Below are positions 58,358-59,100 of a stretch of DNA of 64,000 nucleotides, piece by piece; positions within the stretch are counted from its first letter, which is position 1; the number at the start of each line of letters is the position of its first letter. The notes below the pieces were generated by a model. The model ran no database searches. It was given only the letters and a program-made list of their open reading frames with translations, and was not told the origin of the DNA. This DNA comes from Escherichia coli (GTDB lineage Bacteria; Pseudomonadota; Gammaproteobacteria; Enterobacterales; Enterobacteriaceae). The stretch lies in the NCBI RefSeq assembly GCF_003334305.1, contig NZ_QOWS01000004.1, one strand, 5' to 3'. The translations under genes and the position numbers were made by a program.

Positions 58358-58935
58358 TGGTTTATCCCCGCTGGCGCGGGGAGCTCAACATCGGAAACGG
58401 CTTCGCGGCGGCGGCGTCCGGTTTATCCCCGCTGGCGCGGGGAGCTCTACGTGAAGAATATTTGCAACACCCGCAAGAACGGTTTATCCCCGCTGGCGCG
58501 GGGAGCTCGGCATAGCCAGGCTGATCCGGCGACGGCCTTACGGTTTATCCCCGCTGGCGCGGGGAACACTGTTCGGCGGGGCGGTAGTACCACTGTTTTT
58601 TCGGTTTATCCCCGCTGGCGCGGGGAACACATCAACATGCAGCGCGAACGGCTGCCCCTCGCCGGTTTATCCCCGCTGGCGCGGGGAACACTCTTATTCA
58701 GTCCCCTTTTCCATCTGCTGTGGCGGTTTATCCCCGCTGGCGCGGGGAACACGTAAATTGCGACGTCCTGCGCCAGTAATTCAACGGTTTATCCCCGCTG
58801 GCGCGGGGAACACGATGCGGCAGCGGCGGCGGGAAGTTATCGCGGCGGTTTATCCCCGCTGGCGCGGGGAACACCTTTCAATATAGTCAGAAAAGTCTTT
58901 TGGCAACGGTTTATCCCCGCTGGCGCGGGGAACAC
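58358..58935 (-). CRISPR. CRISPR array 2: 10 repeats with 9 spacers of 32 bp, no adjacent cas genes
   Basis: Exact 61-bp period from 58358 to 58907; the three low-coordinate repeats end GGGGAGCTC and the first starts with T; the leader motif is on the high-coordinate flank. Confidence 0.96.
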
Positions 58936-59100
58936 TCTAAACATAACCTATTATTAATTAATGATTTTTTAAGCCAGTCACAATCTACCAACTTTATAGT
59001 ATCACACAAACAACACATCCATTATGTTAAAGAGCACTTAATCCATTGATTAAAAAGGTAAATATTTAAAATAACTCTATACAAACTAAAATCTACCAAA
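58936..59100 (-). promoter_or_regulatory. CRISPR array 2 leader (motif CAATCTACCAACT at 58981-58993)
   Basis: AT-rich; the motif sits at the same offset (+46 from the last repeat) as in the array 1 leader. Confidence 0.7.

What the first reader, a model, noticed from the sequence alone, without database searches (positions are those of the whole stretch)
58358..59100. Second CRISPR array with its own leader but no adjacent cas genes
Ten repeats and nine spacers lie about 17 kb from the cas operon, between ygcE and queE. The array must rely on the cas operon in trans. It keeps a leader-like flank, so it may still acquire spacers.
Basis: seen in the sequence. Interest (0 to 1): 0.45.

Follow-up and report, generated by a model that had tools for sequence, protein, structure and literature searches.

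The report
E. coli's known second CRISPR array
This is the well-known second type I-E CRISPR array of Escherichia coli (CRISPR-II/CRISPR2.3, between ygcE and queE); it uses the cas genes 17 kb away, and its four newest spacers all come from one P2-like phage, so it has taken up spacers in nature.

Summary
Ten 29-nt type I-E repeats and nine 32-nt spacers lie at 58358-58935 with a 61-nt period. RefSeq annotates exactly this span as CRISPR in E. coli strain A7, which matches the window at 100%. The array is read on the minus strand. Its leader is the high-coordinate flank, 58936-59274, identical to K-12's and 338/339 to BL21's. The BL21 orthologue is the array used in the classical spacer-acquisition assays. 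A complete but non-K-12-type cas-E operon lies 17,045 bp away, next to a second array with the same repeat.

- Spacer maps across E. coli genomes show growth at the leader end plus internal deletions.
- The four leader-proximal spacers match one 32.9-kb P2-like phage contig at 32/32, with PAMs ATG, ATG, ATG and AAG.
- The newest spacer of the cas-adjacent array matches the same phage, with an ATG PAM.
- ATG is selected by the non-K-12 Cas1-Cas2 variant and was not detected in the cited K-12-system assays.

Verdict: already known (the E. coli CRISPR-II locus), low interest. There is no evidence of acquisition specific to this strain.

The parts
58358..58935 (-). CRISPR2.3 array (locus CRISPR-II): 10 repeats of 29 nt and 9 spacers of 32 nt. 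The crRNA-sense repeat is GTGTTCCCCGCGCCAGCGGGGATAAACCG. Spacers are numbered S1 (58875-58906, newest) to S9 (58387-58418, oldest).
   Evidence: RefSeq CRISPR feature at the same coordinates. Hairpin fold.
58358..58508 (-). Three trailer-end variant repeats (sense GAGCTC... instead of GTGTTC...). The last one also ends ...ACCA instead of ...ACCG. The hairpin is unchanged.
   Evidence: The same variants occur in all related strains.
58936..59274 (-). Leader2.3, the whole AT-rich (70%) interval up to the queE stop codon. Position -n from the leader-repeat junction equals window coordinate 58935+n.
   Evidence: 339/339 identical to K-12 and 338/339 to BL21-Gold, with the only difference at -100. 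AT content.
58936..58939 (-). Leader positions -1 to -4 (sense TAGA), the published Cas1-Cas2 contact next to the integration site.
   Evidence: Position mapped from review PMC10011333. Conserved as TTAG(A/T) in both leaders of the window. This is a mapping, not a test.
58944..58970 (-). Leader positions -9 to -35, the published IHF-binding region. It contains AATCATTAATTAA (58954-58966), which has 2 mismatches to WATCAANNNNTTR.
   Evidence: Positions from PMC10011333 and PMC5224486. Sequence read. Binding is inferred.
58980..58993 (-). Upstream conserved block AGTTGGTAGATTGT (-58 to -45). It covers the published upstream element (-50 to -55) and the integrase anchoring site (-50 to -53, here GTAG).
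   Evidence: Identical 14-mer in the same register in the cas-adjacent leader at 32702-32715. Mutating -46 to -57, or -50 to -53, abolished acquisition in PMC5224486.
59039..59051 (-). Perfect IHF consensus AATCAATGGATTA at -104 to -116, near the published likely transcription start (about -95).
   Evidence: An aligned perfect consensus occurs in leader A at 32750-32762. The transcription start statement is from PMC10011333. Its function is unknown.
57766..57903 (-). CRISPR2.2 remnant: three degenerate repeats (57766-57793, 57826-57854, 57875-57903) with two spacers of 32 and 20 nt and no leader of its own.
   Evidence: Identical in K-12. [quoted passage not shown]
57904..58357 (.). 454-bp AT-rich (72%) stretch between CRISPR2.2 and CRISPR2.3.
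   Evidence: One search shows no significant similarity to leader2.3 (score 182 against shuffles 181 +/- 7). Identical in K-12. 'Separated by 0.5 kb' in PMC3903273.
32754..41312 (-). Complete type I-E cas operon acting in trans: cas2 32754-33047, cas1 33047-33967, cas6e 33964-34752 (as listed; the family match starts at residue 47), cas5 34596-35342, cas7 35353-36408, cse2 36420-36956, cse1 36953-38584, cas3 38613-41312.
   Evidence: All eight pass the curated NCBIfam cut-offs for the generic I-E models. Non-K-12 variant: identity to K-12 is Cas1 85%, Cas2 86%, Cas6e 26%, Cse1 20%.
31897..32657 (-). Cas-adjacent array (CRISPR2.1): 13 identical repeats and 12 spacers, with the same repeat as the finding. 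A possible 14th, degenerate repeat lies at 31836-31864 (18/29, not significant by identity alone).
32658..32753 (-). Leader of the cas-adjacent array (type A), 96 nt up to the cas2 stop codon.

Best explanation
The feature is the CRISPR2.3 array of the E. coli CRISPR-II locus, a genuine type I-E array that lies away from its cas genes. How it most likely works, step by step:
- The array is transcribed on the minus strand from its own AT-rich leader. K-12 literature places a likely start about 95 nt upstream and describes the transcription as H-NS dependent.
- Cas6e, encoded in the operon 17 kb away, would cut each repeat hairpin. The resulting crRNAs would load into Cascade and guide Cas3 to DNA carrying an AWG PAM.
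- New spacers are inserted at the leader-repeat junction (58935/58936) by Cas1-Cas2 supplied in trans. IHF bends the leader at -9 to -35, and this brings the conserved upstream block (-45 to -58) to the integrase.

Shown here:
- the anatomy of the array;
- identity of the leader to experimentally validated leaders;
- a complete cas operon next to an array with the same repeat;
- polar growth of the array across E. coli lineages;
- four consecutive newest spacers, plus the newest spacer of the other array, that match one P2-like E. coli phage perfectly, with the PAMs expected for this cas variant.

Inferred, not shown: transcription, crRNA processing, interference and present-day acquisition in this particular strain.
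For: - Repeat statistics: 23 matches in the window against 0 in shuffles. Spacers are exactly 32 nt.
- All repeat variants keep the 7-bp stem and GCCA loop, at -15.1 kcal/mol.
- RefSeq annotates CRISPR at the same coordinates, between ygcE and queE.
- Both flanks are identical to K-12: 339/339 and 638/638. The leader is 338/339 to BL21.
- The BL21 assay coordinates given in PMC5224486 fall on the queE-ygcE array.
[quoted passage not shown] The first 40-60 bp of the CRISPR2.3 leader are needed for array expansion (PMC3737337). CRISPR-2 is transcribed in vivo (PMC10011333). IHF and upstream-element positions are given.
- The cas operon is complete.
- Polar spacer sharing: 544 genomes carry the old spacers and 7 carry all nine.
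- S1-S4 are 32/32 in IMGVR_UViG_3300011584_000016, with PAMs ATG, ATG, ATG, AAG. The newest spacer of array A matches the same contig with an ATG PAM.
- The contig is a P2-like myovirus. It occurs as an E. coli prophage at 95.5% identity.
- The CAT (=ATG) motif is used by the non-K-12 system and was not detected for the K-12 system. The window carries the non-K-12 variant.
- The chance that all five PAMs are AWG is about 3e-8.
Against: - There is no expression or processing data for this strain.
- The simple sigma-70 scan found no minus-strand promoter-like site in the leader at its thresholds.
- The newest spacer, S1, is shared with at least six other genomes from different hosts and continents. 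The differences between those arrays are deletions and one duplication, not new spacers. So nothing indicates acquisition since these strains diverged.
- The literature describes the E. coli I-E system as H-NS-silenced under laboratory conditions.
- The leader evidence comes mainly from K-12-type Cas1-Cas2, which is 85-86% identical to the proteins here.
- The proximal IHF site has 2 mismatches to the consensus.
- Rfam holds no matching CRISPR-repeat family, so that library gave no independent confirmation.
Confidence: 0.93

Rival explanations
1. The array is a frozen relic. It was built by past acquisitions but is now effectively inactive in this lineage: silenced by H-NS, not acquiring, and changing only by deletion or duplication.
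For: The leader-proximal spacer is the same in A7, A28 (echidna, Australia), WL164, FCI51 (human, Colombia), strain 41 (beef, Brazil) and NCTC9088. The arrays differ only by an internal 7-unit deletion, other deletions and one duplicated unit. The literature describes the E. coli I-E system as H-NS-silenced in laboratory conditions. The promoter scan found no strong site.
Against: The leader, first repeat and all cas genes are intact. S1-S4 are still 32/32 identical to an extant phage, so they are not ancient. This rival concerns present activity only. It does not dispute what the element is, and it overlaps with the best explanation.
Confidence: 0.3
2. The newest spacers were not acquired in situ in this lineage. 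They arrived by homologous recombination of an array segment, or of the whole ygcE-queE region, from another E. coli strain.
For: Recombination is reported to contribute to E. coli CRISPR evolution (PMC3903273; PMC4524480, listed). The flanks are 100% conserved between distant strains, which offers long homology arms.
Against: Even so, the spacers must have entered a leader2.3-adjacent array in some strain, because they lie in order at the leader end. The newest spacer of the other array, 25.7 kb away, targets the same phage. That is simpler to explain by one infection history in one lineage.
Confidence: 0.1
3. The array belongs to, or is served by, a different CRISPR-Cas system (for example the E. 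coli I-F system), or it is not a CRISPR at all, for example REP-type intergenic repeats.
For: None found. The array simply has no adjacent cas genes.
Against: The repeat is the I-E (CRISPR2) repeat and is identical to that of the array abutting cas2. Spacers are unique, all 32 nt, and match a phage with I-E PAMs. No other cas genes lie in the 64-kb window.
Confidence: 0.01

Closest known systems
E. coli K-12 CRISPR-II / CRISPR-2 / CRISPR2.3 array with leader2.3 (between ygcE and ygcF/queE)
   Same: Same chromosomal slot. Both flanks are identical (339/339 and 638/638), as are the leader, the repeat and the CRISPR2.2 remnant 454 bp away. The two arrays share trailer-end ancestry: K-12's oldest spacer lies between S8 and S9 in strains M8 and ATCC 8739.
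   Different: Nine spacers here against six in K-12, with none shared. Three trailer repeats are the GAGCTC variant. The partner cas operon is the non-K-12 variant: Cas6e is 26% and Cse1 20% identical to K-12's.
BL21-AI / BL21(DE3) queE-ygcE array used in Cas1-Cas2 spacer-acquisition assays (Yosef et al. 2012 as cited in PMC3737337; PMC5224486)
   Same: Orthologous array. The leader is 338/339 identical and the first repeat is identical. Cas1-Cas2 is supplied in trans in both cases.
   Different: BL21 lacks cas genes altogether, and Cas1-Cas2 come from a plasmid. Here a chromosomal operon 17 kb away is present.
Non-K-12 cas-E variant of E. coli (cas-EO of O157:H7 in PMC3737337; probably the variant called cas-E1 in PMC3903273) with type-A repeats and leader-A
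   Same: The cas-adjacent array uses ...AACAC (type A) repeats. The Cascade genes are highly divergent from K-12's. Natural PAMs are mostly CAT (=ATG).
   Different: I did not compare the sequence directly with O157:H7. The assignment rests on divergence from K-12, the repeat type and the PAM usage.
Orphan (cas-less) CRISPR arrays in general
   Same: No cas genes within several kilobases.
   Different: This array is not a true orphan. A complete cognate cas operon and a sister array with the same repeat are on the same chromosome 17-26 kb away.

Membership tests
Type I-E CRISPR array (E. coli CRISPR2 repeat type) | 29-nt repeat matching CGGTTTATCCCCGCTGGCGCGGGGAACWC, 32-nt unique spacers, 61-nt period | tested here: met
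   10 copies, 7 of them exact, against 0 in shuffles. All spacers are 32 nt and unique.
Type I-E CRISPR array (E. coli CRISPR2 repeat type) | Repeat RNA forms the stem-loop that Cas6e recognises (7 bp, 4-nt loop), followed by the 8-nt AUAAACCG handle | tested here: met
   All three repeat variants fold into the same hairpin at -15.1 kcal/mol, z about -3.3. Cleavage itself was not tested.
Type I-E CRISPR array (E. coli CRISPR2 repeat type) | Protospacers flanked by the 5'-AWG PAM in the orientation set by the leader | tested here: met
   S1-S3 have ATG and S4 has AAG, all 32/32. The candidate match for S6 is preceded by AAG.
Type I-E CRISPR array (E. coli CRISPR2 repeat type) | Cognate cas1, cas2, cas6e, Cascade genes and cas3 in the genome | tested here: met
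   Eight genes pass the curated NCBIfam I-E cut-offs.
Type I-E CRISPR array (E. coli CRISPR2 repeat type) | Match to a curated RNA-family model for the repeat | tested here: inconclusive
   No CRISPR-repeat family of Rfam 15 matched at the gathering threshold or at E<=1. The library seems to hold no suitable model.
E. coli CRISPR-II locus (CRISPR2.3 + leader2.3 + CRISPR2.2) | Located between ygcE and ygcF (queE) | tested here: met
   NCBIfam and RefSeq annotation. Definition from PMC3903273.
E. coli CRISPR-II locus (CRISPR2.3 + leader2.3 + CRISPR2.2) | Conserved leader2.3 next to the array | tested here: met
   339/339 to K-12 and 338/339 to BL21.
E. coli CRISPR-II locus (CRISPR2.3 + leader2.3 + CRISPR2.2) | CRISPR2.2: 3 repeats and 2 invariable spacers about 0.5 kb from CRISPR2.3 | tested here: met
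   Three degenerate repeats at 57766-57903, 454 bp away, identical in K-12. Definition from PMC4489801.
Functional (active) CRISPR array | Transcription of pre-crRNA and processing to mature crRNA | not testable with these tools
   Only literature for the identical K-12 leader is available. The consensus promoter scan was negative on the minus strand.
Functional (active) CRISPR array | Leader-end acquisition of new spacers | tested here: met
   Met historically. Spacer sharing is nested and polar, and there is a run of four leader-end spacers from one phage. Present-day activity in strain A7 cannot be tested with these tools.
Leader integration architecture of type I-E (IHF-dependent) | IHF site at -9 to -35 and upstream anchoring element at about -50 to -55 | tested here: inconclusive
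   The upstream block is present and is identical in both leaders of the window. It reads GTAG where the tested K-12 leader has GTGG. The proximal IHF-like site has 2 mismatches to the consensus. Because the leader equals the BL21/K-12 leader that supports integration, function is likely but was not measured.

The most novel reading that the evidence does not exclude
During a natural, probably primed, adaptation episode against one P2-like phage, the cas-distal array took four spacers and the cas-adjacent array at least one. Leader2.3 might therefore be the preferred integration site for the non-K-12 Cas1-Cas2. The perfect IHF consensus conserved at about -100 to -116 in both leaders might be a further, undescribed element of type I-E leader architecture, acting in integration or in control of the array promoter.
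Probability: 0.15. Interest if true: 0.35.

Novelty: already known. Interest (0 to 1): 0.13.

Why it matters
For annotation, the array is correctly called and already annotated, so no new biology hangs on it. The extra value is a worked natural example in one genome. Two arrays 25.7 kb apart were fed by one cas operon from the same P2-like phage, and the PAM signature (ATG) identifies which Cas1-Cas2 variant did it. That could be used to compare how efficiently the two leaders capture spacers, and to test whether I-E immunity against temperate P2-like phages works in wild E. coli.

Tried and rejected
- Tandem Repeats Finder does not report the arrays, because the spacers differ. This says nothing against the array.
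- Rfam at the gathering threshold and at E<=1 gave no CRISPR-repeat family. The only hit was a chance Chlorobi-1 match at E=0.91.
- I tested whether the 454-bp AT-rich stretch between CRISPR2.2 and CRISPR2.3 is a decayed leader. The local alignment to leader2.3 is no better than shuffles (182 against 181 +/- 7), so I rejected the idea.
- I tested whether compensatory changes in the most degenerate CRISPR2.2 repeat show selection for the hairpin. A rough count gives p of about 0.2, which is not significant (and my own estimate).
- No spacer of either array matches elsewhere in the window at up to 6 mismatches, so there is no self-targeting here.
- The nine spacers gave nothing convincing against 50,697 GenBank phages or 72,556 plasmids.
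  - The weak match of S1 to the phage Mangalitsa thyX gene (25/32, no PAM) was spurious. S1 later matched the P2-like contig at 32/32.
  - The S6 match to an IncX plasmid DnaJ-domain gene (28/32, AAG PAM, in frame) remains a plausible but unproven relative of its source.
- S5, S6 and the second-newest spacer of array A gave no hit in the viral contigs.
- Array A's third- and fourth-newest spacers (A-S3, A-S4) and three spacers present in strain A28 but deleted from A7 (x1-x3) had no hit in the parts of the phage contigs I held.
- The sigma-70 scan found no minus-strand site in the leader.
- A literature search for P2-like targets of natural E. coli spacers found nothing specific.
- PADLOC and Pfam gave no assignment for the phage's 440-aa target ORF.
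- The putative 14th repeat of array A is 18/29 identical, no better than the best chance match in the window (19/29), so it is supported only by its register.

Full report
**1. The observation**

The sequence at 58358-58935 holds ten copies of CGGTTTATCCCCGCTGGCGCGGGGAACAC, as read on the plus strand, at a strict 61-nt spacing. Seven copies are exact, two have two mismatches and one has three. Dinucleotide-preserving shuffles of the window gave no match at all. The nine intervening sequences are all unique and exactly 32 nt long.

The window is 100% identical to Escherichia coli strain A7 (NZ_CP028767.1, isolated from orangutan faeces). RefSeq annotates a CRISPR feature in that record at exactly these coordinates, between ygcE and queE. 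NCBIfam confirms QueE and an FGGY-family kinase on either side.

The gap from the cas3 start codon (41312) to the array is 17,045 bp. The gap from the cas-adjacent array is 25,700 bp.

**2. Orientation and anatomy**

The plus-strand repeat is the reverse complement of the type I-E repeat GTGTTCCCCGCGCCAGCGGGGATAAACCG. The array is therefore read on the minus strand, and the leader is the high-coordinate flank, 58936-59274.

Three independent facts agree with this orientation:
- The degenerate repeat, ending ...ACCA, is at the low-coordinate end.
- Spacers shared between strains lie at the low-coordinate end.
- In this orientation the protospacers carry 5'-AWG PAMs.

The three trailer-end repeats start GAGCTC instead of GTGTTC. 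All variants keep the 7-bp stem and GCCA loop at -15.1 kcal/mol.

They lie 454 bp beyond the trailer end. [quoted passage not shown] It is identical in K-12.

**3. The cas genes that must serve the array**

A second array of 13 identical repeats lies at 31897-32657. It abuts a complete operon at 32754-41312: cas2, cas1, cas6e, cas5, cas7, cse2, cse1 and cas3. All eight genes pass the curated cut-offs of the generic type I-E models.

The K-12-specific Cse1 and Cas3 models fail their cut-offs. Direct comparison with K-12 gives these identities:

| Protein | Identity to K-12 |
|---|---|
| Cas1 | 85% |
| Cas2 | 86% |
| Cas6e | 26% |
| Cse1 | 20% |

This is the non-K-12 cas-E variant. PMC3737337 calls it cas-EO, and it is probably the variant that PMC3903273 calls cas-E1. 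It is associated with type-A repeats and leader-A. No cas gene lies near the ygcE-queE array.

**4. The leader**

The 339 nt between the first repeat and queE are identical to K-12 MG1655. The 638 nt on the trailer side are identical too. BL21-Gold differs at one base, at position -100.

PMC5224486 gives coordinates for the BL21-AI array used in acquisition assays, NC_012947.1:1002800-1003800. These fall on the queE-ygcE array. PMC3737337 states that Yosef and colleagues showed the first 40-60 bp of the CRISPR2.3 leader of BL21-AI to be required for array expansion.

Published leader elements map onto the window as follows:

| Element | Leader position | Window coordinates |
|---|---|---|
| Cas1-Cas2 contact | -1 to -4 | 58936-58939 |
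| IHF region | -9 to -35 | 58944-58970 |
| Upstream element / integrase anchoring site | -50 to -55 | 58985-58990 |

The upstream element sits inside a 14-nt block, AGTTGGTAGATTGT at 58980-58993. The same block occurs, in the same register, in the otherwise diverged leader of the cas-adjacent array at 32702-32715.

Both leaders also carry a perfect IHF consensus further upstream, at 59039-59051 and at 32750-32762. The review PMC10011333 states that CRISPR-2 has a likely transcription start about 95 nt upstream and is transcribed in vivo in an H-NS-dependent way. A simple sigma-70 scan found no minus-strand site in the leader, so the promoter rests on the literature.

**5. Has this array acquired spacers?**

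I searched the nine spacers, concatenated, against 5,426 complete E. coli genomes. 544 genomes carry at least one spacer, always at the annotated CRISPR site. The pattern is nested: S7-S9 are the most widespread, S5-S9 less so, S3-S9 rarer still, and all nine occur in only 7 genomes.

Spacer maps of eight related arrays and K-12 show the following:
- A28 carries S1-S4, then seven spacers (x1-x7), then S5-S9. The A7 array is therefore the A28 form with an internal 7-unit deletion.
- Strains 41 and FCI51 carry a duplicated unit.
- M8 shares S5-S9 but has seven different spacers on the leader side.
- K-12's oldest spacer lies between S8 and S9 in M8 and ATCC 8739.

This is the classical picture of growth at the leader end combined with internal loss. 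PMC3903273 describes the same pattern for this locus.

**6. What the spacers target**

GenBank phages and PLSDB plasmids gave nothing convincing. Scans of IMG/VR allowed a free base at every sixth position. They found perfect 32/32 matches for all four leader-proximal spacers in one 32,869-bp contig, IMGVR_UViG_3300011584_000016:

| Spacer | Contig position | Strand | PAM |
|---|---|---|---|
| S3 | 7164-7195 | + | ATG |
| S1 | 9484-9515 | + | ATG |
| S4 | 10645-10676 | + | AAG |
| S2 | 19578-19609 | - | ATG |

S1, S3 and S4 also occur in a second contig of 32,502 bp. The newest spacer of the cas-adjacent array matches the same contigs at 4957-4988 on the plus strand, with an ATG PAM. The older spacers S5 and S6, and the second-newest spacer of array A, gave no hit.

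The contig is a P2-like myovirus. It encodes a gpA-type replication nickase, tail sheath, tail tube, tape measure and baseplate proteins. Cultured relatives are only about 68% identical, and only over gpA. It is present as a prophage in E. coli N1420 at 95.5% identity. Other E. coli lineages carry different CRISPR spacers against the same 3.9-kb region.

Chance cannot explain these matches:
- A 27-base exact match is expected about 1e-5 times per 100 Gb.
- Five AWG PAMs out of five has a probability of about 3e-8.
- Four of the five protospacers lie on one strand within 5.7 kb, which happens in about 1% of random placements.

The clustering fits primed adaptation, but that is an inference.

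The PAMs are also informative. PMC3737337 reports that the K-12 system selects CTT (=AAG), with CAT (=ATG) not detected. The non-K-12 variant selects CWT, and CAT is the commonest PAM among natural spacers associated with leader-A. Four of the five PAMs here are ATG. The spacers in the cas-distal array therefore carry the signature of the Cas1-Cas2 variant encoded 17 kb away.

**7. Limits**

Nothing here measures transcription, crRNA processing, interference or acquisition in strain A7. The newest spacer, S1, is shared with at least six genomes from different hosts and continents. There is therefore no sign of acquisition since those strains diverged, and the system may well be silent under most conditions, as the literature describes for E. 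coli. Array segments could also have moved between strains by recombination. About 7.1 kb of the phage contig (10952-18070) was not available to me.

**8. Comparison with what is known, and verdict**

Every defining feature of the E. coli CRISPR-II locus that I could test is met: position between ygcE and queE, leader2.3, the CRISPR2.3 array and the CRISPR2.2 remnant about 0.5 kb away. This locus has been described since at least 2010-2014 (literature cited). Its orthologue is a standard substrate for acquisition assays.

The phage-targeting result is a neat natural confirmation that both arrays are fed by one cas operon. It is not a new kind of biology. Interest is low.

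Noticed in passing
All three can still form a 7-bp hairpin. In the most decayed copy, two C-G pairs have become U-A. 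My rough estimate (p about 0.2) says this is not significant evidence of selection.
   Followed up: yes
window 59039-59051 and 32750-32762 (minus strand): Both leaders carry a perfect IHF consensus (WATCAANNNNTTR) about 93-116 nt upstream of the first repeat, and the two sites align with each other. The window holds only six perfect matches in all. The one in leader2.3 lies near the published likely transcription start at about -95. I did not find it described for type I-E in the papers I read.
   Followed up: partly
window 33964-38584 compared with 32754-33967: There is a sharp divergence boundary inside the cas operon relative to K-12. Cas1 and Cas2 are 85-86% identical, but Cas6e is 26% and Cse1 is 20%. 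This fits the published exchange of cas-E modules in E. coli (PMC3903273).
   Followed up: partly
window 41644-41801 (minus strand): A Sok antitoxin RNA (Rfam RF01794, 113 bits) lies next to a Hok/Gef family CDS, between cas3 and cysH. This is a chromosomal hok/sok toxin-antitoxin locus directly beside the cas operon.
   Followed up: no
L015 2286-3608 (IMGVR_UViG_3300011584_000016, contig 9352-10674): A 440-aa phage ORF between the gpA-like gene and ogr holds protospacers S1 and S4, and also protospacers of unrelated spacers from other E. coli strains. It has no Pfam or PADLOC assignment (PHROG 34659, unknown function). Other E. coli P2-like prophages have a HEPN-domain gene at this position, so it looks like a variable cargo slot.
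   Followed up: partly
L010 (E. coli ATCC 8739, NZ_CP022959.1) 1-800: In ATCC 8739 an IS4-like IS421 element abuts the first repeat of the ygcE-queE array where leader2.3 should be. Its leader-side repeats are the GAGTTC type. This is a natural leader-less version of the same array.
   Followed up: no
window 58570-58601 (spacer S6); L003 (pJARS35, NC_015054.1:1451-1482): S6 matches a DnaJ-domain gene of IncX-type conjugative plasmids (Yersinia, Citrobacter, Serratia, Aeromonas) at 28/32. The match is directly preceded by AAG and is in frame (KKQW[Y/F]YRP). The expected number of such ungapped hits with that PAM is about 3e-4, so the spacer probably comes from a related plasmid.
   Followed up: partly
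window 31897-32657 compared with 58358-58935: Spacers of the cas-adjacent array occur in only 60 of 5,426 E. coli genomes, against 544 for the ygcE-queE array. This agrees with the published higher turnover and exchange of CRISPR2.1 together with its cas genes.
   Followed up: partly
window 59275-58936 (queE stop codon to first repeat): queE is on the same strand as the array and directly upstream of the leader. The terminator scan found no terminator-like site in 57700-59300. Read-through from queE into the array is therefore conceivable but untested.
   Followed up: no
L006 and L011 (strains 41 and FCI51): One spacer-repeat unit (x1) is tandemly duplicated in these arrays. This is a non-acquisition route of array growth in the same spacer group.
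   Followed up: no
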